From a virus: DNA of 64,000 nucleotides. Made by a program: the position numbers and the translations under genes. Numbering within the stretch: position 1 is the first letter of the stretch; the number at the start of each line of letters is the position of its first letter. The notes beneath the pieces are model-generated. The model did not search any database. It saw nothing but the letters and a program-made list of their open reading frames with translations, and had not been told where the DNA came from. The DNA is taken from the IMG/VR virus record IMGVR_UViG_3300033402_000312; one strand, written 5' to 3'. Shown one piece after another: positions 2,671 to 50,300 of the stretch.

Positions 2671-2764
2671 TAGGTTTGCCCTGAAGCGAATTCTGATTCG
2701 AGTGCTAATCAGCACGCTGGTAGCTGCCATCATACTCGTCATCGCCTTTTTTGGTGAAAAATGA
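2634..2764 (+). CDS. small membrane protein (43 aa), tentative
   Basis: The stop overlaps the next ATG (ATGA). Single TM helix (ILIRVLISTLVAAIILVIAFF). Confidence 0.25.
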
Positions 2765-6119: not shown

Positions 6120-6171
6120 GCAACGGGAACGGCGGCAGACTACCGAGGCTGATAAGGAGAATAGGGCTAAA

Positions 6172-7304: not shown

Positions 7305-7311
7305 TGCTTCC

Positions 7312-7629: not shown

Positions 7630-7673
7630 AGCATCCGAATGAAATCTTTATAAAAGAGACGGCAAATTGACTG

Positions 7674-8123: not shown

Positions 8124-8124
8124 A

Positions 8125-8340
8125 ATGGCTAGGAAGAAAAAAGCACGGAAGGCACAGATCGGCGATTGCGAGATGATGGTGTTCTGCCCGCAGTCGGAAA
8201 ACCCTCGCGGCGAGCGCGAATGCGGCGATCCGGGCGTGGCTGAGTGCCGGGAATGCGGCTTGCCGTTCTGCGGAGACCCTGACCACGGCAACGAGATCGA
8301 GGAGCTTTGCCGGGATTGCCGAGAGGGGGAGGAACAATGA
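8125..8340 (+). CDS. small Cys-rich protein
   Basis: Nine Cys in 71 aa. Confidence 0.5.
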   Translation: MARKKKARKAQIGDCEMMVFCPQSENPRGERECGDPGVAECRECGLPFCGDPDHGNEIEELCRDCREGEEQ

Positions 8341-9905: not shown

Positions 9906-10411
9906 GCACGGAGATGACCAACTGGAAAACGCTCTACAAGAAAGAGTCGTGGGGCAACCACAGCTTCGGCATAGAAATCCGCGCCGCCATAGATCGCCCG
10001 CTCAACGAGAACGACGAGATGGCGATGCACCGGATCGCAGACGAGATCGAGGAAGCGATCATGCGGGAAACCATGCGCCTCGACCCGGAGGCACAAAAAG
10101 CCAAGAAGGAAGAGAACACGAAGCTGATGGAATGCTTCGGCGGGGAGAACATCTATGCGCTAGAAATCCCGAACGGGTACTCCCCAAGCTGGGAGTATTC
10201 GCAAACTCCATGGTACAAGGTCACGACGCGCAAAGGCGTCGTCGAGATTGGCTGGCGCAAGCGCGTGATCGAGATAAGCTGGGAGCCGTCAGTGAACAGC
10301 GAAGCCTACGACCTTTTCCCCGATGAGGATGTCACCAGAATGGGGCGCACGATCCACGCTTGGGGATACGACAAGGCGAAGGCGTACATCTCGCGGCTTC
10401 TGGCACCGTAA
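9902..10411 (+). CDS. hypothetical protein
   Basis: ATGA overlap with the Nudix stop. The N-terminal 339 nt of the listed 9563 ORF overlap the Nudix gene and are probably not translated. Confidence 0.55.
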   Translation: MSTEMTNWKTLYKKESWGNHSFGIEIRAAIDRPLNENDEMAMHRIADEIEEAIMRETMRLDPEAQKAKKEENTKLMECFGGENIYALEIPNGYSPSWEYSQTPWYKVTTRKGVVEIGWRKRVIEISWEPSVNSEAYDLFPDEDVTRMGRTIHAWGYDKAKAYISRLLAP

Positions 10412-29262: not shown

Positions 29263-29442
29263 TGACAAGGGGTGTGCCTCCAAAAATGTTCTGCCTTACT
29301 AATGAGGCAGGAAGCGGCTGCATCCGATAGATACTGCGCATTCTGGGACTTGCAGAATTGCCAGTGCTCGACTCTTGACCAAACTATCCGTTTCAAGGTA
29401 GAGGAGGGCTGTCTTGGCACGCGCCGGAATTCCAACAAAACC

Positions 29443-31002: not shown

Positions 31003-31080
31003 CCGATTTTTCCGAAAAAACGTTTACAAAATCCCTAAGCAGCGGGGAAGATAAAATCCCCTAAGCAAAATAAGGGATTG

Positions 31081-37000: not shown

Positions 37001-40000
37001 CCAACAAGTACACGAAGGTGGACGAGAGCGGCGAAATTGTCCGCGACACAGGAGGTCTCGCAACCTACCTCTCCCCGGAGGAGGTGAAGGCGAAGGGTCT
37101 TCCCGAAACGGACACCGCGATTTTCGCCTTCATCATGGACGGGGATTGCGTAGGCCAAGCGTCTGATGAATGGGGCGCGGACGGTGTCTGGGTCGCCCCG
37201 CAAATTCAGCGTCAGGGCCTAGGCACCGAACTCCTAACCGAGCTAAGAAAGCAATTCAAACCGACCCGCCAAATGGGGCAAATGACCCCGGCTGGCAGGG
37301 AGATGGCCAAGAAGTACTACAACAATTTGTTGTTGAAAGAAGCCGCCGTGCCCCAGCTTCAGGAATTGCAGCACGGCGTGTCCAAGGACTACGACCGCGT
37401 GCGCTGGGTCTATCAGCAGTTCCTCGACAGCCGCGTCCGGTCCATGCCGTGGCAGGACTTCCAGAAGAGGTTCCCGTGGGCGCAGAACTCCCCGCTGTTC
37501 ACCGAGGTGCGCCAGAACCGCCCGAGGATCACGACCGAGGACATGGAACGCTGGATGGACGAGTACGACGCCAAAGCCAAGGAGTACCAGAACTACGAAA
37601 TCGAGCACGGCACGTACCGGGACAAGGAGACATCCTTCCGCGACGTGGAGCAGCTTGTTCTGAAAGTCAACCAGTCCGCCAGCGCGAGGGAGATCGTCGG
37701 CGAAGACCCGATGATGAAGGAGTTCCTGGGGCAGGTCGCGCAGGGCAGCGCCCAGTCCGGGCACCCTGCGGGCGAGAGCACCGTGGGCTGGCTCCGCGTG
37801 GACTTCATCGACGACGACTGGCTGCTTGTCGATGAAGTCCAATCGGACTTGATCAACGCGATGGAGCTAGGCAAGCGCTTCCTCGCCGAGCCGACGCTCG
37901 AATCGCTGATGTCCAAGTACAAGAGCGAGACCGTGAAGCAGAAAATCCGCGACATGGGGGCGACGGAGCAGACGTTCCAGATGTCCAAGCGGGAGATGGT
38001 GCGCCGGGGCTACACGGTCGAGAAGCTGGAGGAGATGAAGCGGCAGCTTGTCAACCTGTTCAAGGACTGGGCAGAGTACGGCATCGCCAGCCTGATCGAG
38101 ATCGCCCGTCGCCACGGCATCAGGAACGTGGCGATCCACACGGGCGAGACCGTCGCAAGGCGGGACCCCGACCTCGAAGCAGACAAGGCGGGCATGTACT
38201 ACGACCGGCTTGCGAAGTCCTTTGGTTTTAGGAAGCAACCGTTGGACGTTGGCGACCTCAAGGGCACCTTCTGGGTGCGCACCGCAAGCGCCAAGATGCC
38301 CAAACACCTGTACCACGGCACATCAGAATCTAACATAGCAAAAATCCTGAAAGAAGGAATAAAGATAAAGCACGTCCGGCAGGCTTCTGACGGAATCTAT
38401 CTCACAGATAATCCATCGAAAGCCGCAGAGTACAGTGATTCTTCCGAGGTTCTGAGGATTGACACAAAAGCCCTAGATTCGAACAAATTGCGGCCTGATT
38501 CCGACGACCTACAAGCCTTTTGGGAGGAGCATCTATCTGAGGCGGAGAAGGAACAATACGGGAATAGTGCCAACGTCCCGTGGCAAGCTGTAGTTCACGA
38601 TTTGACCCAGATTACCTACGTTGGGGATATTCCGCCCGAGGCTATTCAAGTCATTCGAGTAAAGACCGCAGGCAAGCGCGACGAGGACGTGGGCGACCTC
38701 AAGGGGAATTTCTGGGTGCGCACCGCGAGTAAAACCAGCCCGGTGACGTGGGAAGAAGTTAAAAAGCATATCACTAAGACTAATCCCCATGAAGGTGCCC
38801 GAGACGCTTGGGGTGGTATGAGTGTGGAACTTCCAAATCTGGCGTGGGCAAAAGAACTAATCCAACCGAACGACCCCCGTCTTGATTGGAGTAATCTACA
38901 TCCAGCGTCAAAGCGGGATATAAGGCGCTATATCAAATTCCATGAAAAGAGCGAAAACCAAGATTGGTACAGAGGTTTTCCCGCAGTCATATTGACACTG
39001 GAGAACGGTAGGCTTTTTGTGCAAGATGGGGCGCATCGCCTTGCAGCTATTCATGAATTGGGCATTCCGGTTGAGGCTTATGTGGGGAGACAACAGGAAT
39101 CAAAGCAGGCAGGCAAGCGCGACGAGGCGACGACCAGCATGACGGTCGGGACGACCGACCCGAGCTTCCCCATGCCGGTGCTGATCCGCTGGGAGCAGGG
39201 CATGCGCTGGCGTCAGGTGCTCAAGGCGGTCAAAGCGATAGTGGGCGAGATCGCCGGGCGCAGGGTGCCGTGGCGCGAAATCCACATCTGGGCCTCGCTC
39301 TGGGAGAACCAGCAGGTGCAGCAGGAGGGCTGGGCGACGGAGAGGGCGATTGGCAACCGCGTCATGTACGACATCCTGCACAACGGCAGCTTCGTGAGCG
39401 TGGGGAAGCAGGTTGCCACGGCGACGGGGGCGGAACCAGAGCCGGAGTATGTCGGAAACTGCACCGAGGACGAGGTCGTGGCGCAGTATTTCGGCGACGC
39501 CACAAGGCTCGCCCAAGCCATAGAAAACGGCGAGAAAAGGTCGGAAACCGAAGTCTTTGATCCGACCTCGAACTTGCTGATCAAGTACGACCCGGCGACG
39601 GACGTCCACTCCTTCTACAAGACTGCCGACTCGCACAAGGTCACGCCGCTCGACGAGACGTACTACAACTCGCCGGAGAGCGGCGAGGAGACCAACGCCT
39701 ACGCCGACGTACCGGAGCGCGTGCGCGGCATCTACGACGTGCCGCCTTTGAAGGAGCTTGCCCCGCAGCTTTTCGAGAAGGACGCGGCGGGCAAAAAATA
39801 TCCTTTCGCCGCAGTGAAGCGCGTCGCCGACCGATGGTTCAGGAAGAATTGGCGCACGGTGCAAAGCGGGTGGGGAGACCAAGTAAGCTACGAAGTGGGG
39901 TTCACGATCTACCTCGACCAGAACGGCAAAGTGCAGATGACGAAGCTCGCGCAGGGTGACACCGCCGAGGTGGAAATCCCCGCCCCGCCCGAGGGGTGCA

Positions 40001-42036
40001 TTGCGCTTGGCAGCCTGCATACCCACAGCGGAGAGGGCGGAGGCGAACTCAGCCCGTGGGACGAGGAAGAAGGGCAGAGGGTCGCCAACGAACAAGGCTC
40101 CTCTTACTGGATGTTCGTCGTCGGCCCCAATCCGCTGAGTGAATCTTCCGATATACCAGGCGTGGTCATGGTGAACGACTTTTTCGAGCCTGAGACGCAG
40201 GTCAAGAAGGGTGCGCTTGAAGGCGTGGAGTACAGGGTCAATGTGCTGGATTCGCACGGCGGCGAGCTTTTCTGCACGGCTGAGGCTTGGCTGAACGGCG
40301 AGCGCGTCGGCACGGTGGACTTCAACGAATCCGAGGCGGATGTTCCTCTTGAGGACACGCGCTACTACAAAGAAGTGCAGGACGAGTACGGTGCAAAGGA
40401 GTACGAGCGTATCGCCGAAATTCCGAAGGAAGTTTGGATCAAGCATGTGTGGGTCGAGCCAACGCACCGCCGCAAGGGCATAGCCACGGGTATGTACGAG
40501 AAGATCAAGCAGGAGTTCCCCGGCGAGAAGATCGTGAGCAGCGGCACGACCCCCGAGGGCGGCGAGTTCCGCAAAAAGCTAAAAGAGCACGGCGTGCTCG
40601 CGCATAAGATGGCGGCAGACATGCCTGCCTTGGCGAGGTCAATCCAAGACGCTATTGAGGAGGCGGGACAGAAAATTCCTCGCACTAACTGGGAGGAATG
40701 GCTCAGGAAAGCGAAAGCACGTCTCAGCGAAAGAACCGGAGTGGAAGCTGATGATCTGCTTGACGACGCTATCACGGAAGCCGTAGTGAACGCACTGTTC
40801 AGGGATAACTTGGCTAAGAGATACGACCCAAGCAGAGGTCCTAGCAACTACCTGACATTCGTCCTCGGAAAGAGGGTAATGAGCGGGGGTGAAGAGTACC
40901 TGCAAAGAGAAGCGAGACAGCAACCGGAAACAATGCCGCAGGAACGTTCCGATGAAATAGAGCTTGTGGAAAACAAAAAAGACGCACAAAAATTCGTTCG
41001 CGCTTTCGGAGAATGGCTTGCAACTTTCTGTAGCAAAACACTTATGGGTTGCAAGCCTGCCGTAACCCAAAAAAGAATTTGGTTGTTGTCAATGGTGATG
41101 AAGTACGGATATCCGAAGCGAAGGGAATTAGTCGGCCCTTGGCAAAAGACATTCAATCTCAGTCTTGGAGCACTGAAAGGGTATCTCGGCGAATTGAAGA
41201 ATCTCATGAGGGAATTTGCAAGGACAGGCGGGGCTTGGGCAGAAGCCGCTGGTGCAGTCTCGTCCCTGCTAGCCAAGGAAGCTTCGTCCAAGGAGTTCAA
41301 GACCGCCCGACTTCAAAAAAACGCTGTGTACGCCGAGGCGCAGAACCAAGTCCAGCACACCGACCACGAAGCCGTGGGGATGACCAAAACGCTGAAGAGC
41401 GACCCGTTCGCCGAAGAGATGGAGGCGCTGCACAAAGACCTCGGGCAAGAAGTGCCGGAGCCGAACCCCGCCATTACGCCCAGCAAGGGCGAGGGCCAGC
41501 CGCAGGCGAAGGGCGAAGACCAGTTGCAGCTTCAGCAAGCCCAGAGGATGCAGCAGGCGAGCTTGCTAGCAGCCAAGAAACCCCTGCTCGAATCCTTGGA
41601 AGCCCTGCGCCCCGCCTTCGTCAAGGCGGCGCAGGAGGCATACGAGAACGGGCCGGAGCACGAATGGCAGGGCGTCTGTTATTGGGTCGCCTCAGCCATC
41701 TTGGAGGAGGCGCTGTCGCACAACCCAGGCTGGGGCGGAAAGGTCGTGGACTGCGGCGAGCACCACTCGTGCGCCGTCGTTTGCGACCGCAAAGAATGCT
41801 TCAGGGTTGACATTCCGTTTGCAAAGTACGAGAAGCTGATCCCGAGGGAGGAGAAGCCCGGCAACAAGGCGTACGACTACGACATGCCTTGGAGCTTTGA
41901 GACAATCGGCGACGTGGTGTTCAAGCCTGAGGACATCGAGATCGTGCCCACCAAGCGCCCGAAATGGGGCAAGAAAAGCAAGAAAATGGCTAATGACCTG
42001 CCATCGCTTGAAGAAGTGTTGGCAGAATTGGAATAG
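31081..42036 (+). CDS. giant polyvalent multidomain protein 1 (about 3,651 aa)
   Basis: Uninterrupted 10.96-kb ORF. Motifs read in order: 2H phosphoesterase (HVTI/HITI); ART/Tpt1-like (VVYHGT); Cys/His module; ParB-like (DGGHRLEAYYRAGRKTIPV); HExxH (IAHELAHH); GNAT (RQGLGTELL); second ART-like (LYHGTS...GIYLT); second ParB-like (DGAHRLAAIHELGIPV); JAMM-like (HTHSGEGGGELSPWD); second GNAT (HRRKGIATGMYE); C-terminal Cys/His module. Confidence 0.85.
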   Translation: MSLLDKKTAKQYENASTQINVPPEVAAEIARIGKKLIPDGHLAGDGRVEVLHVTIKYGVQPNEHVLQQALAGHKSFEVVLGKTTIFPEASTEATPVVIEVHGHEFEALHETVAAVMGILPDDFPYTPHITIAYVKQKEAQHYAGKDDFVGIEFVADAVTLSIFDDDNQVDVPLAKAAAEAILGGRNTKAWLLPNGRFQTWEFIEHPLVEPEMSPAIRVGRGPSGHAYAQITEPPTNAQMSALADLDKFEKGLFVEIKDKNSDTVYEGVPVRFSEIRHAVNSAFPKTAASPAVMPEIPEVVPQVPQEQPEDEEEVQRDEPATGEKREEPKRQRQPKNRLLRPKQPKQRAPKPPVQTTNFKRWFGKSKVRDDSGKPLVVYHGTTHDFEAFDPSQGNVENHYGRALYFTSSKTDLAENYATEAGPDITQRIELTAERIFNDLQEEWDEEHPGEEFPPYSSDEYQKLMEEARQQAKKQIAGQSQGVSMPVYLSLQNPVVVQKNGGTGFELNIDEDGNESGSALTLYHAMLRVAGNYHHTDAQEIWVDLIEHNGESFNAWDFERQVRNAGHYVEDDEGNLASGSFIADVYREMGFDGIIQDAYAEFGVGQYGRMKMEPGTKHYIVWDPRKVKSAIGNVGKFDPANPSITAASRQYPATEEWIGRAKKFLREKWAQRNDEMGRGEIPSNLEGACKFASLFAKELFGGRIVGNPEHQVVQHVYQIIDLTDRYDPNTFRHDKEWFGNPEHQESMQSCMPRVKQWAEEFRQKHPLESETDAKLASDYHRNVGWLLHDGSFKPLIKGESHREGAVRLGLSTDPQDMTEAFDKGAVRVSGNQYTSLEFKMLSPNIASLLLDFILQKRSDAKTITFDWFRPRRAEQEFNSVDDAVEWLDNPFAVMASAKSAAGFNKRVISIDDLPGEAKADLAAEIAEHLTAIGFQPPWQESGAVEANDLRPELFDLADPPLVTVYDAPVESLHKTLDRKYDPGDGVVRKYVEMLKSGVEFDPIFVNNGEFSDGGHRLEAYYRAGRKTIPVAEIGPFLNAPAEFWQRWLSGDENAKFAAFPKTALNVPRLVKDFGQKLVARAERDHSAPTVPPPRPGAEPATREQQVEQRATTLVNSIAQSDPSPNKEYTAWIVGNYARGGINRWEDIKSRAIPALKRFNTLKITRKLPLEERDIMKVKGMKGLEDLMEKYKEVEAISETQKEKEVEAAFFQNGGAAMVHDDPQIKVVTPKTKEAACFFGINTRWCTSAQNSYNYFESYNKKGPLYIVLIKANNQRFQFHFETESYMDERDNAVDPWDLTSQYPVLKKIFQPVVLGFMRNNANIRASFVAFVEKPTTEMMLAAVDEDPSAIDHFPNAPQEVKWRAFCRRMGFSEENYDKKLKGFVVAEYENVEEFAEERGNDTAKWAAGISSGKEDWDSDGSGFEASTVLDACKPTTIAEINEYIKFHHDASLQPWLKANEETFPLDASKIEQFMTDEGLDDVEDKLRSGWYSGEESGAQDEVIGAFKSALTDINRSTTENGTVIVFDQANMWDSKVLEILPLAEAENMVKENPGDTDLWDSSDRYHENEILKVEQPYYGFSGFSEEACNERISEEFYISDKERKERAGQQPELPLAAPAKKKRRKTKASLLEKRGVREKSVDDLGLAKKVMRELIPVLGEQLPEPELKVVNQPRAGWLGRDTWRVGIQNGKPTWGDNTTIELQAYILNDENTLRRIIAHELAHHADALVNGVEEMKKVNDKWTYKWFLRENRGRGHGMTWKQYAQKFNAKYGADFVTEKSDESYVTEEQELRPYHILLKRDYDGKLAYEVSSRISPKMKRILDRMASNKDGTEYRLTQTNDRDFYEGQLISSYYWNHPKEPEKQAKLEALWEKGQRVLPTGTAKEQDELVRLWNEAKERSKARGKAKVSDAHSDRAKTFPDADAFLKEHYTGFIPSNAYDSKDWSMWKREDFPVLLKTFTLKDGTEVELRKTGEPNKYTKVDESGEIVRDTGGLATYLSPEEVKAKGLPETDTAIFAFIMDGDCVGQASDEWGADGVWVAPQIQRQGLGTELLTELRKQFKPTRQMGQMTPAGREMAKKYYNNLLLKEAAVPQLQELQHGVSKDYDRVRWVYQQFLDSRVRSMPWQDFQKRFPWAQNSPLFTEVRQNRPRITTEDMERWMDEYDAKAKEYQNYEIEHGTYRDKETSFRDVEQLVLKVNQSASAREIVGEDPMMKEFLGQVAQGSAQSGHPAGESTVGWLRVDFIDDDWLLVDEVQSDLINAMELGKRFLAEPTLESLMSKYKSETVKQKIRDMGATEQTFQMSKREMVRRGYTVEKLEEMKRQLVNLFKDWAEYGIASLIEIARRHGIRNVAIHTGETVARRDPDLEADKAGMYYDRLAKSFGFRKQPLDVGDLKGTFWVRTASAKMPKHLYHGTSESNIAKILKEGIKIKHVRQASDGIYLTDNPSKAAEYSDSSEVLRIDTKALDSNKLRPDSDDLQAFWEEHLSEAEKEQYGNSANVPWQAVVHDLTQITYVGDIPPEAIQVIRVKTAGKRDEDVGDLKGNFWVRTASKTSPVTWEEVKKHITKTNPHEGARDAWGGMSVELPNLAWAKELIQPNDPRLDWSNLHPASKRDIRRYIKFHEKSENQDWYRGFPAVILTLENGRLFVQDGAHRLAAIHELGIPVEAYVGRQQESKQAGKRDEATTSMTVGTTDPSFPMPVLIRWEQGMRWRQVLKAVKAIVGEIAGRRVPWREIHIWASLWENQQVQQEGWATERAIGNRVMYDILHNGSFVSVGKQVATATGAEPEPEYVGNCTEDEVVAQYFGDATRLAQAIENGEKRSETEVFDPTSNLLIKYDPATDVHSFYKTADSHKVTPLDETYYNSPESGEETNAYADVPERVRGIYDVPPLKELAPQLFEKDAAGKKYPFAAVKRVADRWFRKNWRTVQSGWGDQVSYEVGFTIYLDQNGKVQMTKLAQGDTAEVEIPAPPEGCIALGSLHTHSGEGGGELSPWDEEEGQRVANEQGSSYWMFVVGPNPLSESSDIPGVVMVNDFFEPETQVKKGALEGVEYRVNVLDSHGGELFCTAEAWLNGERVGTVDFNESEADVPLEDTRYYKEVQDEYGAKEYERIAEIPKEVWIKHVWVEPTHRRKGIATGMYEKIKQEFPGEKIVSSGTTPEGGEFRKKLKEHGVLAHKMAADMPALARSIQDAIEEAGQKIPRTNWEEWLRKAKARLSERTGVEADDLLDDAITEAVVNALFRDNLAKRYDPSRGPSNYLTFVLGKRVMSGGEEYLQREARQQPETMPQERSDEIELVENKKDAQKFVRAFGEWLATFCSKTLMGCKPAVTQKRIWLLSMVMKYGYPKRRELVGPWQKTFNLSLGALKGYLGELKNLMREFARTGGAWAEAAGAVSSLLAKEASSKEFKTARLQKNAVYAEAQNQVQHTDHEAVGMTKTLKSDPFAEEMEALHKDLGQEVPEPNPAITPSKGEGQPQAKGEDQLQLQQAQRMQQASLLAAKKPLLESLEALRPAFVKAAQEAYENGPEHEWQGVCYWVASAILEEALSHNPGWGGKVVDCGEHHSCAVVCDRKECFRVDIPFAKYEKLIPREEKPGNKAYDYDMPWSFETIGDVVFKPEDIEIVPTKRPKWGKKSKKMANDLPSLEEVLAELE

Positions 42037-42906
42037 ATGCAGCAAATAGACTTTACCGTACCTAAGTGTATGCTATTACATAACATCTATGTTCTTACTG
42101 ATCCTTTGGAACCCGACCATATTCGATATGTGGGATACAGCCGACACTTGCCTGAAACTCGCTTGAGGCGACATATCATTGAAGCCCGGTCGTCGCATAA
42201 GGATTCTCGCACTTACAAGAATACTTGGGTTCGTAAATTGCTTAGGGAAAATCGCATACCCACAGCGCTTTGGATTGAAGCTACTAGCGATCCTGACGAA
42301 GCTGAGAAACGCTGGATACAAAAACTCAAGGCGGAGGGACATTCCTTGACAAACGGAACAGATGGTGGGATAGGCGGACCTCCGGGTGTTCACCGGGGGC
42401 ACAAACACTCGGAGGAAACCAAGCTACGTTGGAGCCAAAAGAGGCGTGATGGTGTCAGAAAAACTTCATCCATTTTGAAAGCCGCACAATCCAATTCAGG
42501 GCAAACAAGAACCGCAGAGCAAAAAACTCGCATCAGCGAAGGAAAGCGCAAAGCGTGGGCATTGAGAAAAGAAAAAGGACTGGACGCACATAGGAGAACT
42601 TACACAATCATCTTTCCCGATGGTCATTGTGAAGAAGTGTCCTCTTTGCATGAATGGTGTACACAGAACAAGATAAGCTATGACATGATGACCCGAGTTA
42701 CCGGGGGGAAATGCGAATCCTATCACGGCTACGCCTGCGAAACCCATAACGGGGATCGAGCACAAAAGATAGCTGCCTTTATTGTGGCTAACCCAAAAAT
42801 CAGCTACAAAAAAATAGCAACACACTTTTCCACAACCAAACCGACAGTTCTGTCTGTCGTGCGCAAGTACAACTTGTATCGCAAACAGAGACAGCCAAAT
42901 GTCTAG
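42037..42906 (+). CDS. GIY-YIG homing endonuclease (Seg/I-Tev-like) with NUMOD3-like repeats
   Basis: NIYVLTDP...IRYVGYS...RLRRH (GIY-YIG). HSEETKLRWSQKRRDG and TAEQKTRISEGKRKAW (NUMOD3-like). The ATG immediately follows the giant ORF stop (TAGATG). Confidence 0.8.
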   Translation: MQQIDFTVPKCMLLHNIYVLTDPLEPDHIRYVGYSRHLPETRLRRHIIEARSSHKDSRTYKNTWVRKLLRENRIPTALWIEATSDPDEAEKRWIQKLKAEGHSLTNGTDGGIGGPPGVHRGHKHSEETKLRWSQKRRDGVRKTSSILKAAQSNSGQTRTAEQKTRISEGKRKAWALRKEKGLDAHRRTYTIIFPDGHCEEVSSLHEWCTQNKISYDMMTRVTGGKCESYHGYACETHNGDRAQKIAAFIVANPKISYKKIATHFSTTKPTVLSVVRKYNLYRKQRQPNV

Positions 42907-44383
42907 TTGCTATCTTCTTCACTTTGATCGAGGCCTTCCCCATGGTGCTCAAGCCGAGACAAGGCACTATCTCGGGTTCAGCACTGCTCCCGAGGAACGC
43001 ATCGCGCAGCATTTCAGCGGCGAGGGCGCACGTTTAATGCAAGTACTTTACGAACGCGGAATCACTTTCACTGTCGCCCGCATCTGGAACAACTGTGAAC
43101 GAAAGTTTGAGCGGCGCTTGAAGAGCCAAGGCGGACTCTCTCGTCATTGTCCAATTTGCCTGAATCTGGGATTGATTCCCACTTCACGGGCACGAAGCAA
43201 GGCTTTAAGTGACGTGCAACCTGTCCCCAAGACCATGCAGCCCAAGACGGCCGCTGGCGCTGTGGACATCGACTGGGAGACCGGCATGTTCGAGAACTAC
43301 AAGCTCGTCCCAAAGTACTCGTACCACGAGTACGGCGACCCAATCGACGAGGACGAGGCGATTGGCGAATTGAACTGGAACATGCTGGTCGTGAGCGTGT
43401 TCGACACCGCCAAGGAGCAAAGGGGAAAGCCGGGCAAGCAGGTCGGCGAAGCCGACTTCGTGCTGCGCGGCGGGCGGCTTGAGTCCGCGAACACCGAAGT
43501 GGACAAGAGCTACTGGAGGCGGGGCATAGCCACGGCATTGTACCAGTACGCCGAGAGCTTGACCGGATTCAAGACGAAGCCACACTCGACGCAGTCCCCG
43601 GAAGGACGCGCCCTGTGGCAGCAGGGGAGCAGGCCGTTCGGCAAGTCCGGCTCGGACAAGCCCATGATGGAAATGCACCGCAAGGGCGCTGTTGTCTGGA
43701 TCGACTGGTTCGAGGTTCCGGCGAGCCAGCAGGGCAAGGGCTTAGGCAGGAAGTACTACGAGGCGTGGGAACAAAAGCTGCCCAAAAACGTGAAGCTTGT
43801 TCGGCTGTTCGCAGGTAATACGGACACCGGAGAAGCGTCGGGCTTCTGGGCAAAGATGGGCTTCGAGAATGTATTCTACGACGAAGAAAGTCAGTACAGC
43901 TTCTACATGTGGAAAGGCGTGAACGGCAACCCGACGCCGCCGCCGATGGATTCCCCCGACGAAGACCCCGGCTACGACGTCGAGGACGAACCGGAGAAGA
44001 CGGCGTCCAAGACGGCTGCAAACCGTGTGAGCGGCGAGGACGTGGTCGCTTACGTCATGAAGCTCAACGAGTGGGACAGGGACACGGCTTATCAGGTCGT
44101 GGGGCCGGACGCCGGGGGCGACTACGTGCTGCGCGACTTCCCGCTCAGCAAGCTGAGCGCAGGGGACGATTACGACCCGGAGCAAGCGGAGCAGTACTCA
44201 AGAATGGAGGGCCCGCTCCCGCCCATCGTGCTGGGGCTGGAGTCTAGGGCGCACCGCGACAAGCCGGAAATGGTGACGTACTATGTCATCCGCGACGGGA
44301 ACCATCGCGTGGCGGCGGCAAAGCTGCGCGGGGATAGCAAGATCAAGGCGTACGTCCCAGCGGACGCTACGAAGGTTAAGTAA
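42899..44383 (+). CDS. GIY-YIG-like / GNAT / ParB-like multidomain protein (494 aa)
   Basis: N-terminus YLLHF...HYLGFS...RIAQH (GIY-YIG-like). GNAT-like SYWRRGIATALY and QQGKGLGRKYY. C-terminal YYVIRDGNHRVAAAKLRG (ParB-like). Confidence 0.7.
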   Translation: MSSCYLLHFDRGLPHGAQAETRHYLGFSTAPEERIAQHFSGEGARLMQVLYERGITFTVARIWNNCERKFERRLKSQGGLSRHCPICLNLGLIPTSRARSKALSDVQPVPKTMQPKTAAGAVDIDWETGMFENYKLVPKYSYHEYGDPIDEDEAIGELNWNMLVVSVFDTAKEQRGKPGKQVGEADFVLRGGRLESANTEVDKSYWRRGIATALYQYAESLTGFKTKPHSTQSPEGRALWQQGSRPFGKSGSDKPMMEMHRKGAVVWIDWFEVPASQQGKGLGRKYYEAWEQKLPKNVKLVRLFAGNTDTGEASGFWAKMGFENVFYDEESQYSFYMWKGVNGNPTPPPMDSPDEDPGYDVEDEPEKTASKTAANRVSGEDVVAYVMKLNEWDRDTAYQVVGPDAGGDYVLRDFPLSKLSAGDDYDPEQAEQYSRMEGPLPPIVLGLESRAHRDKPEMVTYYVIRDGNHRVAAAKLRGDSKIKAYVPADATKVK

Positions 44384-44384
44384 A

Positions 44385-47300
44385 ATGCGCTGGTATCACG
44401 GCACAAGTCGGCAGAACGCCAAAAAAGCCCTCAAGGAGGGCATTCTCAAGCCGGGGGAGGACTCCATTTATGACGTGGACGTCCCGCGAGATGATGCCGT
44501 ATACATAACTTCGGAATACCAAATCGCCAAATACTACGCTGAAGAGCATAGTTGGCAGGGCAAAGGCGGCGTGGTCTTGGAGGTTGCCGCCAACGAAGGC
44601 AGCTTGATGCCTGACGAGGACGCAATTTACGACGCCCTGCATGAGGGCGCTGTGGTGCTGGGCGAGAAAAGCAGCAAAAAGCTGGGGCAGGCGATCCGCA
44701 AGGCATGGCTGAGGCACTGGAAGTCCATCGAAGGCGAAGGCGACACGTTCGAAGAGGCATGGGAAGCGTGGGGGAATGTGGAAGCCGAGGGTTCGTCGGG
44801 GATCGCCGAAGAGATGAAGGAACTGACTGAGGAAATCCATAGGGAGAACCCGGCTCTGTCCAAGGCTATCATCGAAGCCAGCGGCAAAGCTGCGCACATC
44901 GGGCCGGTGAAGGTCATGGGCATCGCCAAGAAGCAAACCGCAAAACCGGACCTGTCAAACGATCAAGAGCCTCTGGAGGCGGCGCGGCAAATGCTTGCGG
45001 AGCTTGGCGGAAACGAGAAACTCTGCGGAAAAAGCAAAGTCGTGCATGGGTATTGGATCGAGACCCACACGCTGGGATGCCGCAACGCCGCAGACGAGCC
45101 GGAAAGCGAGTGGGAAGCCAACCACAAGCGCATCAGGGACGAATACGCCAACGACGGCGTCAGTATCGTCCTGGACGACAAGAATTCCAGCAACTTCGCG
45201 ACGGTGACCCCGCAGTCCAAGACCGCAGCCAAGAAGGTCAGGGTCGTCAAGACTCCGGGCTTCATGATCGAAGTGCCGCAGGAACGTCGCAAGACGTTTT
45301 TCATCCGCCCGAAGACCCCGCTGGAGTACTGGGCTTTCAAGAACCGCCCCCGCGTCTTCGTGAACGAGCCGCTTATCTTCACGTTCGGCGGAAAGCCCGT
45401 GGCGGAAGCTGTAGCCGTGAGGGTCGAGGCCCCCGGTCGCGGCGAGGGCGAGTACAGGCACTGGCACAAGGTGTACTGGAAGCCCACGAGCTTCAAGAGG
45501 TTCCGTATAACTGCGTCTGAGCGACCCGGAGTGTTGTACCACATCAGCCGCCGCACCAACCGCCAGTCCATCCTGAAGAACGGACTGCTGCCGTTGCTCA
45601 AAGAGTACAAGGATGTAGAGCGTGCGCCGGGAATCTATTTCTTCCAGAGCATCGACGCCGCGAAGGACTACGGCTTCTACCACGCGCAGCATGTCAACCA
45701 AGCTCTCGACATCTGGGAATGCCGCATCCCCGAAGGCTACGAGGTGCGCCATGACCCGCACCCGGAGATGGACGAGTTCGATGCGTGGATGAGCCATGAG
45801 CCGCTGCCCCCGGAAAACCTGAAAGTCGTGGACACGATCCTCGTGCCGAAGTCCACTGCCGACGCGCCTCCTCCCTACAAGAGCCAACGCGGCGACAAAT
45901 TCAAGAGAATGTATGAAGAGCGAGTCCGGGAATTTGCTTACCGGGGCAAAGGTGCTGCTGGGAAACCAGTTCCATGGAAGTCCGACCTGCTGCGCTGGGA
46001 CAGGCTCACCGCGTGGGAAGACAGGAACACCGCGAACGACGATGCCGAGTACACATCCGAGGAGATCGAGGAGAAGTACAGACTCGCGCCGCCCAGCGAG
46101 ACGCGCAGGGGCGTCAACGCCGCGCTGCTCAAGTCCGCCAAGGCTAATTTCCCGACCTTCGAGCAGGTGATCGACAAAAAGACCGACACGAACAACGAGT
46201 TCGAGATTGACATGTGGAAGGGCGAGGAACTGGGAAACAGGCGCAAAGAGTACGACGAGTTGCTCCGGCAAATGAAGGCGCTGAAGTTCCCGCTCACGGT
46301 GTACCGCTGCTTCGCGCTCAAAGAGGGCGAAAAGATCGACTACAGCAGCCTCGGCGGCTCGTGGTCTCTCAACAGCCGGGCAGCGTACTTGGTTTCCCAC
46401 GAACTGTTTCCCGACGACGAGGGCTACGACTACAAGACCGTCGCGGGCACCATCCAAAGCCCGGATGCCGTGGACTGGCTCAACACCATGCGTGCCTGGC
46501 TGACCTTGCCGGACGAGGAGGAGATCAGGCTGAAGCCCGGCGCGAAAGTCGGGGTCCGGGGGAAGACCCGCACCGCAACCGGCAAAAAATTCTATCACGG
46601 TACGAAAAAGAAGAACCTTGACGACATCCTGAAAAACGGTTTGAAGGTCGAGATGTCCGAGGCGCACACCGAATGGGGCAGGGCAATCTACCTAGCGTGC
46701 GATGCCTACACCGCCGCGAACTACGAGGGCATGCACGGAGGCGGCGAGCCGTGGGCGATCCTTGAGATCGACGGCAGTAAGCTGAACGAATACTACATGC
46801 GCCCGGACGACTACGACTTCCCCGACCTCTGGGAACAAGCAGGGCGCAAGGAGAACTGGGCGCACCAGACATGGCAGACGAGCCTCAAGGTGTCGTGCCA
46901 GATCGCCTATCTCGCCGACATCCCGGCAAGCGCCATCAAGGTGCATCCGTACAAAAAGAACAATGTTCCGGCAAAAAATACGCAAAAAGAGTTTCTCGAC
47001 AGCCACACCGTGGAGCAGGTCGCGGAGCACTTCGGCATCACGCCCGCAGCCGCAGCCAAGGCGAAATCCGAGGGCATAGTGAAGAAAGCCGATATGACCG
47101 AAGACCCCGACTACTACATGACAGAAGGCTGCGGCATCTGGGCGGTGGACTTCGCCCGGAAGAACGGCGGGGAGATATACATCCTGTCGGCGGAGCGCGG
47201 CGAGGAGTGGAGCGAGGAAATCCCGTACGAGGTCACGCACGCCTTCGTGAAGAAGGACGGCAGGACCTACGACGTCCGGGGCGAGCGGACGCCCGACAAG

Positions 47301-50300
47301 ATGGCCTGGGAGCTAAGCATGGGCGAGTACACCGTCAAGGGGCCGTGGACGCCCGACGAGTTCGAGGCCAAGTTCATGGGCAGCACCGACGATAAGCCGC
47401 TGTTCGGCAAGGAGAGTGCCAAGACCGCGACGATGCCCCCTCGCGGGCGGTTTATGTGGCACGTTACCCCAATGCGTAACGTACCCTCGATCAAAAAGAA
47501 CGGGCTGATTCCGCAAGTGGGCGAACGCAGCGCCGAAGGGGGCGAGAAGCCAGGCATCTTCCTCTTTCCGACAAAGCAAGGAGTAGAGGATGCCCTTACT
47601 GGATGGCTCGGCGAATCCTTTGAGAACACTCCCGAGGAACTGGCTATCGTTGAAGTAGCTGTGCCAGAAGATGTTCAAATGGAGGATTCCACTGATTACA
47701 CCACTCAGTTCGAAGTGGTCATCCGTCAGCCGTTGCCAGCGAACTACATCCGCAGGATATACACGGAAAAAGAGTTCGAAGACCACCTTGCCCGAATTGC
47801 CTCCAAGACCGCCGACAAGGTCATCGGCGTGGGCGAAGGGGACGAGTACTGGGCGGGAGAGGGCAACGCCGCGTCCGGCGTGCTGCCCGTGTGCCCGAGC
47901 AAGGGCACGGTGTGCCTCGCGTGGAGAAGCCCCTATGTCATGAGTCCCGACTGCTGGGGCACCATCGGCGGGGCGGTCAAGAAAGGCATGAGTCCGCAGC
48001 AGAGCGCGAAGACCGAGATGGCGGAGGAGACGGGGTACCACGGCGGGATCAGGCTGATTCCCGCGTACACTTTCTTGGATCGCGGCTTCAAGTATTTCAA
48101 CTTCGTCGGCGTGGTGCCGAACGAGTTCCCGTTCAGCCCCGGCGAAGGGCACGGCTGGGAGACCGACCACATCGCGTGGGTGCCCTACGAGCAGGTCGTC
48201 AAGGACATGCAGGAGAACCCCGGCGACTACCATCCCGGCTTGCTCAAGCTGTTCGCCAACTCCAAGGACGCCATCGAGCGAGCGCTGAAGATCAAAAAGC
48301 AAGGAGCCATTAAGACTGCCTCTATTGATACCAACGGTTGGATCACCCCCGATGGAGACTGGGAACCGCTGGAAGACGGAGAAACTCATGTCAACGCAAT
48401 CCAACGCCTGCTAAATCGCGACGATGTTTTTGAAAAAGATGGATTGAAAGAAGGATATATCCGAGTTCATTACCAGGATTACGTGCCCGGTCAACCCATC
48501 GAAGCCTACTTTCTTTGCGAAAAACGCACGTCACACAATTTTGCCTTGGTCAGGGAAGCGATCCATGATTTGCCGTCTCAGACTAAGCAAGTAGCGGTCG
48601 TGTTCAAACATCCCGAAGATTATCAAACATACACGTTTGAGGAGGCACTGGAGGATTTCCCCCGCCGTGCTGTTTTCGCGGCCGAGAAGCAAAGCGCCAT
48701 CGTGAGACGCGGCGCGTTCGACCCGTTATGGATGAAGCGCTGGGTCGAGGGCGGCTGCTGGCTGTTTGCGCTGGCTTTGCAGCCTCTCATCCCCGGCTCG
48801 GTGTTCGTCGGTCTCGCTAGAGAAGGCGAAGTCCTTGAGCACGTCGGCGTGCGCAAGGGTGACAGGTACTACGACGTGCGCGGGGAGATGGACGAGACCG
48901 AGTTCAACTACGGAGCCGACTCCGAGGTTCCTCTCCATATCGTGCCCGTGGACTACGAGCAGGTGATGAGGGACGGGGAGTACGGAAGCTGGCTCGGGCA
49001 CGAGGACGAGTTCGAGACCCTGCCGGAGATGCAGGCGGCTAAGGAAGCTGTGCAGAAAGTATTCGGCAAGGGCAAGACCGCAGAAGTCAACCCAACAGCC
49101 CCACCGCCAAGTTCCAGCCGCCTCCCGTGCCCCAGCGGCAAGCGCAAGTTCTACGACGAAGTGTCGGCAATCGGCCCCCACAAGCAGTGGAGCAAGGGCA
49201 CGCCGAACCTCCGCGCCTACAAGTGCCCGATATGCGGCTGGTGGCACCTGACGAGCAAGCCGCAAAGAGTGACGGCGAACCTCCATGGGATGGGGACGTT
49301 CTATCACGGGACATCATGGGCAGAGGCAGACCAAATCAAGGTCGAGGGCCTCAAAGCCCACCCATGGGCTTTCAACGACAAATCGTACGTCTGGTGTACG
49401 CTGATCGAGCAGCTTGGCATCAGCTATGGGGAATCCAAAACGGAGAATAGCTCAGAACCCGGATACGTCGTAAGCTTCGAATGGGATTACGACCAAACGG
49501 AACCCGACCCCGAGCATGGGGAAGAGTATGAGGACGTATATCGTCGCATCGAGGGCGACGTGCCAGCCTCCGCCATCACCGGCATCAACTATTACGCCCC
49601 GGATCACAGGCTTGTGAAGACAGCAGCCGGGCAGAAGCAGGCGGATGCCGCCTTGAACGACTTCTTGGCAGGCAGGATTTCCAAGGAAGAGTACAAGGCG
49701 ATGCTCTCAGGGGAAAGCCAGCCGGAGCAGGCACCGCAGCAACAGCACTTGTTCCCGTCTTCGCAAGACGCAAAGTTCAAAGCTTGGTTCGACGGCTCGA
49801 AGGTCGTGGACAAGAACGGGAACCCGATGCCTGTGTACCACGGCACGCGCTCATCCGTGGAATTCGAGGAGTTCAGCGTCGAGGGCCCGCCACAAACAGA
49901 TTCATACGAAAATGAAACCACGTCTTCCGGCTCCGGTGCAGACCCGACCGCGTTCCTCGGCGCTCACTTCGCTGAGGAAACAAACGTCGCCAACCTGTTT
50001 GCCGAGGGCAAGGGCTGGACGGGCGTCCGCTACGAGGGGGAGCAGCCCAAGCCCCGCGTGATACAGGTTTTCCTGCGGATCACGAATCCGAAGGACTTCG
50101 GCAGCGAGCACAACCTGCGCGAGTTCATTAACCAAGGCAAAATCGCCGACGATGAGGTGACCAATCTCGTTATGGAAAATCGTGACGGGATTAACTATTG
50201 GGAGCCAGAGCAAGAACAAGCGGCGCAGGAGTGGGGTGAAAAGTATGAGAACGATCAAGCCTTCCGCACTGAAGTCAACCGTTACCTGTGGGAGCAGCAT

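What the first reader, a model, noticed from the sequence alone, without database searches (positions are those of the whole stretch)
42037..43200. Seg-like GIY-YIG homing endonuclease wedged between the giant genes, followed by a second GIY-YIG-like N-terminal domain
The 42037-42906 ORF has textbook GIY-YIG motifs and NUMOD3-like repeats. It starts on the nucleotide after the giant-1 stop (TAGATG).

The next ORF overlaps it by 8 nt. Its first 90 aa, YLLHFDRGLPHGAQAETRHYLGFS...RIAQH...CPIC, again look like a GIY-YIG core. Tandem GIY-YIG units at the seam between mega-ORFs suggest that a free-standing homing endonuclease invaded and split an ancestral single gene, or that intron-less homing is under way.
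Basis: partly seen in the sequence, partly recalled or inferred. Interest (0 to 1): 0.6.

Follow-up and report, generated by a model that had tools for sequence, protein, structure and literature searches.

The report
Homing endonuclease splitting a giant phage gene
A selfish "homing" nuclease gene sits next to its probable target, a small nuclease-like module of a giant multi-domain phage gene, and has cut that gene into two separately translated pieces; this is a new example of a well-known kind of mobile element.

Summary
The sequence observation holds. ORF 42037-42906 passes Pfam's GIY-YIG threshold. The first ~100 aa of ORF 42899-44383 are a second, different GIY-YIG-fold unit, here called the YLLHF module.

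Two corrections:
- The endonuclease (HEG) most likely starts at ATG 42070 (278 aa), not at the TAGATG.
- The split gene is giant-1 itself. Its original C-terminus is the 494-aa ORF. The boundary with giant-2 is ancestral.

A related viral contig (L001) lacks the HEG and carries the upstream linker, YLLHF module, GNAT and ParB parts in one uninterrupted 2839-aa ORF, which ends where the giant-2 homologue starts.

The YLLHF module is not a second HEG. It is a widespread small Slx1/YhbQ-like GIY-YIG gene, free-standing or embedded in polyvalent proteins, usually without a HEG. All four closest HEG homologues found among 1.84 billion proteins sit immediately upstream of a YLLHF gene, in otherwise unrelated contexts. 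In one (L026) the HEG lies inside the gene, with a leftover 5' fragment and a recoded duplicate; deleting the cassette restores the ORF.

Best reading: a free-standing GIY-YIG/NUMOD3 HEG clade that homes into YLLHF genes, here creating a genes-in-pieces polyvalent protein. This is a new member of a known kind, of moderate interest.

The parts
31078..42036 (+). Giant-1: the upstream piece of the split polyvalent-protein gene (3652 aa). Its last ~157 codons (41563-42033) are a module absent from L001 and have native codon composition.
   Evidence: ORF. Pfam hits: ART-PolyVal, 2',5' RNA ligase/Acb1-like, GNAT, PARP, SprT-like. It follows a MuF-like minor head protein gene at 29272-31002. Homology to the L001 giant ORF ends at aa 3495. 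GC3 of the last 157 codons is 0.78.
42037..42069 (+). 33-nt leader between the giant-1 stop and the probable HEG start. It contains the motif CAAATAGACTTT (42043-42054), conserved upstream of the HEG in L013 and, more weakly, in L023. It is probably the left end of the mobile cassette.
   Evidence: Alignments of the left junctions. The motif occurs only once in the window. A weak hairpin spans the start region (z = -1.9).
42070..42906 (+). Free-standing GIY-YIG homing endonuclease gene (278 aa; the longest ORF starts at 42037).
- GIY-YIG catalytic domain: 42070-42369
- Two NUMOD3-like repeats: 42397-42558
- C-terminal beta-beta-alpha-alpha-beta module plus three-helix HTH: 42598-42867
   Evidence: Pfam GIY-YIG 25.8 bits against a 22.6 cutoff. 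phrog_314. 7758 relatives, with 36/41 hitting GIY-YIG and 29/41 hitting NUMOD3. AlphaFold model pLDDT 86.8 with the stated domain order. Best Foldseek hit is I-HmuI over a 77-column stretch; GIY-YIG PD-T4-3 and HTH proteins also hit. GC3 0.46. Absent from L001.
42899..43234 (+). YLLHF module: a small Slx1/YhbQ-like GIY-YIG-fold domain with a C-terminal H-C-P-x-C knuckle. It now forms the N-terminus of the 494-aa ORF and is the probable target gene of the HEG. Its ATG lies inside the HEG stop region (ATGTCTAG).
43235..44383 (+). Remainder of the downstream piece: two GNAT acetyltransferase-like modules and a ParB-like C-terminal module. This is the ancestral C-terminus of giant-1. Automatic gene callers start the gene here, at M113.
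   Evidence: Pfam GNAT families and PHROG ParB-like. 71-73% identity to the C-terminus of the L001 giant ORF. Called as a 382-aa gene in public contigs. GC3 0.84.
44385..53981 (+). Giant-2: a separate polyvalent-protein gene. Its boundary with the preceding ORF is ancestral and is not part of the split.
   Evidence: ATG lies one nt after the TAA. Homology to the second giant ORF of L001 starts at residue 1 (77% identity over aa 1-180). Pfam: ART-PolyVal, PARP, NUDIX, GNAT.

Best explanation
Region 42037-42906 is a free-standing GIY-YIG/NUMOD3 homing endonuclease gene (HEG). It belongs to a small clade whose homing site lies in, or at the 5' edge of, genes for a small Slx1/YhbQ-like GIY-YIG protein, the 'YLLHF' family.

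In this phage lineage the YLLHF unit is one internal module of a giant, probably virion-packaged polyvalent protein. Arrival of the HEG therefore cut that gene into two cistrons: giant-1 (3652 aa) and a 494-aa ORF (YLLHF-GNAT-GNAT-ParB).

The downstream piece restarts at an ATG that overlaps the HEG stop codon. This feature is shared by the HEG-bearing relatives L013, L023 and L027 (not L026). Both pieces can therefore still be made, and the insertion should cost little because polyvalent modules act independently.

Inferred mechanism (intronless homing). In a mixed infection the endonuclease cuts a HEG-less YLLHF allele. Repair from the HEG-bearing genome copies the HEG plus a variable length of flanking YLLHF sequence. 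That length is 16 codons in L026 and possibly the whole 112-codon module here.

Shown: presence and absence among relatives, the conserved HEG-YLLHF linkage, the insertion scar in L026, and the domain identities.
Inferred: nuclease activity, the exact cleavage site, current mobility, and translation of the 494-aa ORF from 42899.
For: 1. HEG identity: Pfam above threshold; a large family with GIY-YIG plus NUMOD3; conserved catalytic residues; a modelled architecture of GIY-YIG, helical linkers and HTH.
2. Empty allele: L001 has one continuous ORF through the site and no HEG. L012 and L015 also have the module inside large ORFs without a HEG.
3. Linkage: the four best HEG relatives among 1.84e9 representatives (P0040/L013, P0041/L023, P0042/L027, P0043/L026; E 8e-40 to 8e-26) all have a YLLHF ORF or module starting within 0-60 nt of the HEG end. 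This holds although the upstream flanks and neighbouring genes are unrelated; L026 lies beside a ribonucleotide reductase gene and L027 among small genes.
4. Asymmetry: 13 loci with a complete YLLHF unit (plus one partial match, L022) lack the HEG. None of the five clade HEGs lacks YLLHF.
5. L026 scar: a remnant with host-like codons, VYLLHFSRPMGRVQ (2290-2333), abuts the HEG ATG. An AT-rich duplicate, VYLLHFSSPVGGRIQ (GC3 0.31 against 0.84 for the rest of the gene), follows the HEG. Deleting 2334-3113 restores an intact 95-aa ORF in frame.
6. Composition: the window island has GC3 0.46-0.53 against 0.77-0.84 in the flanks, with sharp edges at about 42037 and 43230. The module in L001 has native GC3.
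7. No intron: no Rfam family matches 41000-44600.
8. Precedent: HEG insertions that split phage genes, namely mobE/nrdA, mobA/gene 60 and seg43(25)/gene 43 (PMC2988022).
Against: - No biochemical evidence exists for cleavage or mobility.
- The nine public contigs that carry the window HEG are 100% identical to the window over the overlaps read (six of the nine were fetched), so no polymorphic empty site is seen within this phage population.
- L011 has the polyvalent gene split at the same module boundary without any HEG and with native composition. A split can therefore exist independently of the HEG.
- Low GC3 is not unique to the island. About 4% of 112-codon windows in the giant genes are as low, so co-import of the whole module with the HEG is suggestive only.
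- YLLHF modules next to HEGs are not each other's closest relatives. The window module is 62% identical to HEG-less L011, against 54% and 44-46% to HEG-bearing L023 and L013.
- The DNA-binding regions of the clade differ. The window HEG has an extra ~115-aa C-terminal region, while the others have extra NUMOD3-like repeats. A common recognition sequence is therefore not guaranteed.
- Gene callers do not call the YLLHF part of the 494-aa ORF, and no obvious Shine-Dalgarno sequence precedes 42899.
Confidence: 0.7

Rival explanations
1. The HEG and the YLLHF unit form a functional two-nuclease cassette that moves and works as a pair. For example, the small GIY-YIG protein could supply a second active site, or act as an immunity or regulatory partner. 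On this reading YLLHF is not simply the HEG's target.
For: Strict adjacency, same strand and overlapping stop/start in four of the five loci: window, L013, L023 and L027. In the window, and partly in L023, the module shares the HEG's atypical codon composition. GIY-YIG domains have a single active site, so a helper is conceivable (general knowledge).
Against: - At least 13 loci carry YLLHF alone, free-standing or embedded in polyvalent ORFs with native composition. The module therefore has a life independent of the HEG.
- In L026 the HEG interrupts a pre-existing YLLHF gene and leaves a remnant with host-like codons. That is an invasion signature, not an operon signature.
- HEG-linked modules are not monophyletic by identity.
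Confidence: 0.12
2. The polyvalent gene was already divided at this module boundary, as in L011. The HEG merely settled in the short gap between two existing cistrons, so it did not cause the split.
For: L011 has two ORFs overlapping by 11 nt at exactly this module boundary, with no HEG and native GC3. Module order and fusion state vary widely among relatives. The same caveat was raised for seg43(25) (PMC2988022).
Against: - The closest relative (L001, with 67-83% identity in flanking modules) is uninterrupted, as are L012 and L015.
- The downstream start codon lies inside the HEG's own 3' end in the window, L013, L023 and L027. The restart signal therefore travels with the cassette.
Confidence: 0.15
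3. The endonuclease gene is an immobile relic or a domesticated nuclease (for example for host DNA degradation or exclusion of competing phages). It is fixed in this phage and no longer homing.
For: All nine public contigs carrying this exact protein match the window at 100% over the overlaps read, and no empty site was seen in this population. P0051 is a truncated clade-related copy away from any YLLHF gene, which shows that decay does occur.
Against: The ORF is intact, with all conserved catalytic residues and complete DNA-binding modules. Its strongly atypical GC3 argues for recent arrival. Its distribution among relatives is sporadic.
Confidence: 0.1
4. The endonuclease is encoded within a self-splicing group I intron or an intein, so the giant protein is restored after splicing.
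For: Many GIY-YIG enzymes are intron-encoded. TIGR01453 'group I intron endonuclease' gives a weak hit at 23.1 bits.
Against: - No Rfam intron or any other RNA family matches 41000-44600, even at E<=1.
- TIGR01453 is far below its cutoff of 56 bits.
- The flanking ORFs have their own stop and start, and no in-frame fusion exists.
- No intein motifs were reported by Pfam.
Confidence: 0.02

Closest known systems
Free-standing homing endonucleases that split phage genes: mobE in nrdA of Aeromonas phage Aeh1 ('genes-in-pieces' RNR), mobA in T4 gene 60/39, seg43(25) in gene 43 of phage 25 (PMC2988022)
   Same: A free-standing HEG is inserted in a coding region that is continuous in relatives. The result is two separately translated polypeptides. 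Distribution is sporadic, and intronless homing with co-conversion of flanking DNA is the expected mechanism.
   Different: - The host gene is not an essential single enzyme. It is a polyvalent, beads-on-a-string effector protein, and the cut falls at a module boundary, so no reassembly of fragments is needed.
- mobE and mobA are HNH enzymes, whereas this one is GIY-YIG.
- No activity data exist here.
T4 Seg proteins (SegA-G) and I-TevI/I-BmoI-type GIY-YIG homing endonucleases
   Same: An N-terminal GIY-YIG catalytic domain of ~100 aa, a flexible linker with NUMOD3-like repeats, and a C-terminal helix-turn-helix DNA-binding module.
   Different: - No detectable sequence match to T4 or other characterised Seg genes in 50,697 phage records.
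- The TIGR01453 hit is sub-threshold.
- No PDB sequence hit.
- The gene is not intron-encoded.
It is 'Seg-like' in architecture and lifestyle only.
UPF0213/YhbQ (COG2827) and Slx1/HIGLE 'URI'-type GIY-YIG nucleases
   Different: - Pfam GIY-YIG is below threshold for the window copy.
- The module has its own signature (YLLHF, ERRLK-x-QGGLSRHCPxC).
- It occurs in phages either free-standing or as a module of polyvalent proteins.
- Its function is unknown.
Polyvalent proteins of phages and conjugative elements (Iyer et al. 2017, PMC5512222)
   Same: The giant ORFs follow a MuF-like head protein gene. They string together ART-PolyVal, 2H/2',5'-ligase, GNAT, PARP, SprT-like, NUDIX and ParB modules.
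   Different: That survey does not use the terms GIY-YIG, URI or homing anywhere in its text. Neither a GIY-YIG module in polyvalent proteins nor a HEG-interrupted polyvalent gene is described there under those terms.

Membership tests
GIY-YIG homing endonuclease (free-standing, Seg-like) | GIY-YIG catalytic domain with the conserved Tyr, Tyr-x-Gly, Arg, His, Glu and Asn residues | tested here: met
   Pfam PF01541 scores 25.8 bits against a cutoff of 22.6. Y7, Y20, G22, H35, E79 and N95 are invariant and R31 is >=90% conserved in a 41-sequence alignment.
GIY-YIG homing endonuclease (free-standing, Seg-like) | Modular DNA-binding region (NUMOD3 or similar repeats plus an HTH) C-terminal to the catalytic domain | tested here: met
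   - Pfam NUMOD3 does not score on the window protein itself.
- The two repeats align to NUMOD3 repeats of relatives, and 29 of 41 relatives score for NUMOD3.
- The model shows helical linkers, a beta-beta-alpha-alpha-beta module and a three-helix HTH.
- The best Foldseek hit is I-HmuI, probability 1.00, over a 77-column stretch.
GIY-YIG homing endonuclease (free-standing, Seg-like) | Not embedded in an intron or intein; has its own start and stop | tested here: met
   No Rfam match in 41000-44600. The flanking ORFs are separate, each with its own stop and start.
GIY-YIG homing endonuclease (free-standing, Seg-like) | Sporadic presence at a defined site, with HEG-less alleles in relatives | tested here: met
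   The HEG is present in the window, L013, L023, L026 and L027. It is absent from the equivalent site in L001, L012, L015, L011 and in free-standing YLLHF loci.
GIY-YIG homing endonuclease (free-standing, Seg-like) | Site-specific cleavage of the HEG-less allele and super-Mendelian inheritance | not testable with these tools
   This needs enzyme assays and phage crosses.
GIY-YIG homing endonuclease (free-standing, Seg-like) | Sequence homology to T4 SegA-G specifically | tested here: not met
   A tblastn search against 50,697 phage records gave only three weak hits, none in T4-like Seg genes. 'Seg-like' therefore describes architecture, not orthology.
GIY-YIG superfamily (Slx1/YhbQ branch), for the N-terminal module of the 494-aa ORF | Significant profile match to GIY-YIG families | tested here: met
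   - The single sequence is sub-threshold at 14.8-17.4 bits against 22.6.
- The family profile hits UPF0213 structures at E 3.4e-5 and 1.9e-3.
- 16 of 33 members hit PF01541 at E<=0.1, with a best E of 1.7e-5.
GIY-YIG superfamily (Slx1/YhbQ branch), for the N-terminal module of the 494-aa ORF | GIY-YIG fold | tested here: met
GIY-YIG superfamily (Slx1/YhbQ branch), for the N-terminal module of the 494-aa ORF | Catalytic residues in the canonical spacing (Tyr, Tyr+~19, Arg +10, His +4, Glu ~+33) | tested here: met
   Y5, Y24, G26, R34, H38 and E71 are at least 90% conserved in the family and are present in the window copy.
GIY-YIG superfamily (Slx1/YhbQ branch), for the N-terminal module of the 494-aa ORF | Nuclease activity | not testable with these tools
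   No characterised member was found.
Polyvalent proteins (Iyer et al. 2017) | Many unrelated effector-type domains in one polypeptide, encoded next to virion or MuF genes | tested here: met
   There are 12 and 7 Pfam families in giant-1 and giant-2, including ART-PolyVal. A MuF-like minor head protein gene lies immediately upstream.
Genes-in-pieces created by a HEG | The two flanking ORFs are colinear with one continuous ORF in a related genome | tested here: met
   Giant-1 aa 3408-3495 and the 494-aa ORF (aa 4-114, 114-252 and 349-494) map in order onto one L001 ORF, at aa 2167-2248, 2263-2382, 2519-2657 and 2693-2838.
Genes-in-pieces created by a HEG | Both pieces are expressed and functional | not testable with these tools
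   Only the intact reading frames and conserved residues can be seen. Gene callers start the downstream gene at M113.

The most novel reading that the evidence does not exclude
The conserved pairing of a full-length GIY-YIG homing endonuclease with a minimal GIY-YIG protein is not just parasite and target. It is a co-evolving two-nuclease mobile unit. In it, the small YLLHF protein would take part in homing as a second-strand nickase, a specificity factor or an immunity factor. Alternatively, it could be an injected anti-host nuclease whose gene the HEG exploits to spread among polyvalent effector arrays and so drive their module shuffling.
Probability: 0.12. Interest if true: 0.65.

Novelty: new member of a known kind. 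Interest (0 to 1): 0.42.

Why it matters
- It adds a clear 'before and after' example of a homing endonuclease breaking a gene into pieces. Here the gene is a giant polyvalent effector of a large environmental phage. This supports the view that polyvalent modules work independently and can be split or fused at little cost.
- It defines a HEG clade with a specific, previously unnoted target family: small Slx1/YhbQ-like GIY-YIG genes. The L026 scar pins the insertion point between the GIY and YIG motifs, which makes the cleavage site directly testable.
- It shows that a GIY-YIG module belongs to the polyvalent-protein repertoire.
- Practically, it flags an annotation problem. Gene callers omit the YLLHF module and begin the downstream gene 112 codons too late.

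Tried and rejected
- DNA similarity of 41500-44500 to 50,697 phage records found no match.
- tblastn of both proteins against the phage records gave only 2-3 weak partial hits.
- A PDB sequence search with the HEG found nothing.
- An exact-sequence look-up of the 289-aa ORF found nothing on record. The 278-aa form is on record, which supports the start at 42070.
- A locus search with the last 399 aa of giant-1 found no relatives.
- A coordinate or frame error was corrected.
- The metagenome scan with the upstream linker found only L003. That contig shares the linker peptide but has different downstream modules, so it says nothing about the junction.
- The word-indexed search with the whole 494-aa ORF returned only 5 partial hits.
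A 5-sequence alignment worked.
- The promoter/terminator scan found nothing above shuffled expectation.
- RNA folds at the two junctions were weak or non-significant, z -1.9 and -0.3.
- A group I intron or intein origin was rejected.
- The idea that the second unit is a duplicated or degenerate copy of the HEG was rejected. tblastn of each against the window finds only itself, and the two belong to different families.
- The idea that L011's HEG-less split is a scar of HEG loss was not supported. The composition there is native and no remnant is visible.
- The more distant HEG relatives P0044, P0046 and P0051 are not next to YLLHF genes. The linkage is therefore limited to the closest clade.
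Full report
**What is in the sequence.** Giant-1 is ORF 31078-42036 (3652 aa) and ends in TAG. An ATG follows it directly and opens ORF 42037-42906 (289 aa). ORF 42899-44383 (494 aa) begins 8 nt before that ORF ends (ATGTCTAG). Giant-2 begins at ATG 44385, one base after the TAA of the 494-aa ORF, and runs to 53981.

**The giant genes.** Both giant ORFs are polyvalent proteins in the sense of Iyer et al. 2017 (PMC5512222).
- Giant-1 carries ART-PolyVal, 2',5' RNA ligase/Acb1-like, GNAT, PARP and SprT-like hits.
- Giant-2 carries ART-PolyVal, PARP, NUDIX and GNAT hits.
- The gene just upstream (29272-31002) matches MuF-type minor head and virion proteins.

The exact window sequence recurs at 100% identity in public metagenome contigs. 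Nine contigs carry the HEG, six were fetched and compared, and the longest on record is 894 kb.

**The endonuclease.**
- The 289-aa ORF passes Pfam GIY-YIG (25.8 bits against 22.6) and matches phrog_314 'homing endonuclease'.
- An exhaustive HMMER search of 1.84 billion representatives gives 7758 relatives at E<=1e-3. Most are 200-300 aa, with the GIY-YIG domain at the N-terminus.
- Of the 41 best aligned sequences, 36 score for GIY-YIG and 29 for NUMOD3.
- The catalytic Tyr, Tyr-x-Gly, Arg, His, Glu and Asn are invariant or nearly so.
- Pfam NUMOD3 does not score on the window protein itself. Its two repeats (GHKHSEETKLRWSQKRR and GQTRTAEQKTRISEGKRKAW) align with the NUMOD3 repeats of relatives.
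- An AlphaFold model built on that alignment (pLDDT 86.8) shows GIY-YIG (aa 1-100), helical linkers (115-168), a beta-beta-alpha-alpha-beta module (177-226) and a three-helix HTH (230-266).
- Its best Foldseek match is the homing endonuclease I-HmuI (77 aligned columns). GIY-YIG restriction enzymes and HTH proteins follow.
- No Rfam family, including group I introns, matches 41000-44600, so the gene is free-standing.

**Start codon.** The start is most likely ATG 42070.
- Gene callers predict 278 aa.
- Nearly all listed relatives align from query residue 9-18, almost all to within their own first ~40 residues.
- The two closest homologues begin MMLQN/MLLQT, matching MLLHN at M12.

The 33-nt leader (42037-42069) carries the motif CAAATAGACTTT. 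L013 has CAAGTAGACTTT upstream of its HEG and L023 a weaker GAAATAGA. The motif is unique in the window.

**The second GIY-YIG unit.** Residues 1-~100 of the 494-aa ORF belong to a distinct family, here called YLLHF.
- Its members are mostly free-standing ~90-aa proteins.
- The consensus is YLLHFD..HA.HYLG...D...R...H..G.GARL...GI.F.LAR.W....R.FERRLK.QGGLSRHCP.C.
- Single-sequence Pfam is sub-threshold (14.8-17.4 bits).
- The family profile hits the UPF0213 GIY-YIG structures 1zg2 (E 3.4e-5) and 1ywl (E 1.9e-3).
- 16 of 33 members hit PF01541 at E<=0.1.
- Foldseek agrees, though weakly.
- The spacing Y5, Y24-x-G26, R34, H38, E71 mirrors the canonical GIY-YIG residues (the mapping onto I-TevI residues is from general knowledge).

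The domain is therefore a GIY-YIG fold of the Slx1/YhbQ type. It is not a copy of the neighbouring HEG; each query finds only itself in the window.

**Is there an uninterrupted allele? Yes.** L001 (IMGVR_UViG_3300043788_000023, 169.6 kb) has the same gene order: MuF-like gene, giant ORF, second giant ORF.
- Its first giant ORF (2839 aa) matches giant-1 in many blocks, up to 83% identity.
- The same ORF contains, in one frame and in order, the homologue of giant-1 aa 3408-3495 (67%), 14 linker residues, the YLLHF module (55%), an extra GNAT-like module, then the GNAT (71%) and ParB (73%) parts of the 494-aa ORF.
- It stops exactly where the giant-2 homologue starts (77% identity from residue 1).
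- No HEG is present in L001.

So the ancestral gene was giant-1 plus the present 494-aa ORF, and the boundary with giant-2 is old. L012 and L015 likewise have the module inside ORFs of 1178 and 1263 codons, without a HEG.

The window also has a ~157-codon module at the giant-1 C-terminus that L001 lacks. Its GC3 (0.78) is native, so it is ordinary module variation and not part of the cassette.

**The tandem arrangement is conserved.** The four best HEG relatives in the exhaustive search were traced to their contigs.

| Locus | HEG relative | HEG position | YLLHF unit |
|---|---|---|---|
| L013 | P0040, ~54% identity over the GIY-YIG domain | 7193-7984, after a 1431-aa polyvalent ORF | Downstream ORF starts inside the HEG 3' end and opens with the module |
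| L023 (332-kb contig) | P0041, 52% overall (60% over the GIY-YIG domain) | 8001-8927, after a 3510-aa polyvalent ORF | Followed by an 1151-aa ORF that starts with the module; every other module is in a different order from the window |
| L026 | P0043 (48%) | 2334-3059 | At 3064-3312; not a polyvalent gene, a ribonucleotide reductase gene follows |
| L027 | P0042 (41%) | 5309-6046 | At 6097-6384; not a polyvalent gene, among small genes |

- The upstream flanks share nothing. Only the downstream YLLHF unit is constant.
- More distant HEG relatives (P0044, P0046, and the truncated P0051) are not next to YLLHF genes.
- Conversely, YLLHF units without a HEG are common. They occur in L001, L011, L012, L014-L021 and in two Actinocrinis MAG contigs.

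The HEG is always with YLLHF, while YLLHF is usually without the HEG. That asymmetry is what a homing endonuclease and its target gene would show.

**The insertion scar in L026.**
- Directly before the HEG ATG lies GTG TAC TTG CTG CAC TTC ... CAG CA (2290-2333). It encodes VYLLHFSRPMGRVQ in host-like GC-rich codons and is terminated by a TGA that overlaps the HEG ATG.
- Directly after the HEG lies an AT-rich duplicate encoding VYLLHFSSPVGGRIQ (3067-3113). Its GC3 is 0.31, against 0.84 for the rest of the gene and 0.45 for the HEG. It continues in frame into HYLG....
- Deleting 2334-3113 restores an intact 95-aa YLLHF ORF.

The cassette therefore entered between the GIY-type (YLLHF) and YIG-type (HYLG) motifs. 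It carries its own replacement 5' end for the target gene.

**Composition in the window.**

| Region | GC3 |
|---|---|
| Giant-1 | 0.77 |
| HEG | 0.46 |
| YLLHF module | 0.53 |
| Rest of the 494-aa ORF | 0.84 |
| Giant-2 | 0.76 |

- GC3 drops at about 42037 and rises sharply at about 43230, the end of the module.
- The module in L001 has native GC3 (0.76).
- This fits import of the HEG together with a donor copy of the module, that is, a long co-conversion tract.
- About 4% of equally long windows in the giant genes are as low, so this point is suggestive only.

**Expression of the downstream piece.**
- In the window, L013 and L023, the downstream ATG lies in an A-rich (A)AAATG context at or inside the HEG 3' end. 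In L027 it forms an ATGA overlap with the HEG stop.
- This suggests translational coupling that travels with the cassette.
- That inference is untested. No clear Shine-Dalgarno sequence precedes 42899, and gene callers start the gene at M113 (43235).
- All near-invariant family residues are intact in the window copy.

**Interpretation.** The best-supported model (confidence about 0.7) is as follows.
- This is a free-standing GIY-YIG/NUMOD3 homing endonuclease of a clade that targets YLLHF genes.
- Here it has invaded the YLLHF module of a polyvalent gene and created a genes-in-pieces arrangement.
- This is analogous to mobE/nrdA, mobA/gene 60 and seg43(25)/gene 43 (PMC2988022).

Rivals, with approximate confidence:
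- A functional two-nuclease cassette (0.12).
- A pre-existing split later occupied by the HEG, as suggested by L011, which is split at the same boundary without a HEG and with native composition (0.15).
- A fixed or domesticated relic (0.10).
- An intron or intein origin (0.02; rejected).

**Novelty and interest.**
- HEGs that split phage genes are known, and GIY-YIG/NUMOD3 HEGs are abundant. This is a new member of a known kind.
- Three elements are new: the target family, the polyvalent host gene, and the recognition of a GIY-YIG module in polyvalent proteins.
- The Iyer et al. survey does not use the terms GIY-YIG, URI or homing.
- Interest is moderate (0.42).

Noticed in passing
window 31078-53981 (e.g. 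43244-43255 PKTAAG; 43997-44020 KTASKTAA; eight sites in giant-2): The short motif K-[TS]-A-[AST] recurs in the giant polyvalent ORFs, in several cases at module boundaries. It occurs 8 times in giant-2 against 0.44 expected, and 3 times in the 494-aa ORF against 0.03 expected. A similar delimiter follows the YLLHF module in L001, L012, L013 and L023. These may be protease-processing sites of a polyprotein. A Lon-like ATP-dependent protease gene lies at 22061-23278.
   Followed up: partly
window 31531-32076, 38185-39216, 40570-41382, 48189-48770, 53079-53585: Other low-GC3 islands (0.42-0.53 against a mean of 0.77) lie inside the giant genes. They are probably horizontally swapped modules and show that the polyvalent genes are compositional mosaics.
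   Followed up: no
window 41344-41409 (giant-1 aa ~3423-3444); L001 ~8990-9055; L003 ~10040-10110: A strongly conserved 21-residue peptide, NQVQHTDHEAVGMTKTLKSDPF, sits in an otherwise variable linker. It is shared with L001 (identical) and, with several substitutions, with the distant contig L003, where different modules follow it. Its function is unknown.
   Followed up: no
L011 4624-4634: A related viral contig has its polyvalent gene split exactly at the N-terminal edge of the YLLHF module. The two ORFs overlap by 11 nt (ATGGGACATAG). There is no HEG, and GC3 is native throughout. Splits at this boundary can therefore exist without a resident HEG.
   Followed up: partly
window 42899-43234 (same stretch in L004-L009): Public gene calls start the downstream gene at M113 (43235, 382 aa). 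This leaves the intact 112-codon YLLHF module unannotated as a 328-nt 'intergenic' gap. The module in L026 is likewise called from an internal Met.
   Followed up: yes
L064 2521-3009; L065 385-873: P0051 is a truncated (162-aa) relative of the HEG clade, 59% identical to the L027 HEG. It lies away from any YLLHF gene and next to IS21/Mu-like transposase genes. It may be a decaying or ectopic copy.
   Followed up: no
L026 3357-6656; L061 1-3603: There are other mobile elements near HEG relatives. The L026 ribonucleotide reductase gene carries intein and HNH hits. In L061 a 2012-aa portal-containing ORF with a faint LAGLIDADG hit abuts a HEG relative.
   Followed up: no
whole window: The longest public contig carrying the identical HEG protein is 894 kb, and two contigs fall in the 0.2-1 Mb class. 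The window may therefore come from a very large phage genome, a prophage within a chromosome, or a chimeric assembly. This contig could not be fetched.
   Followed up: no
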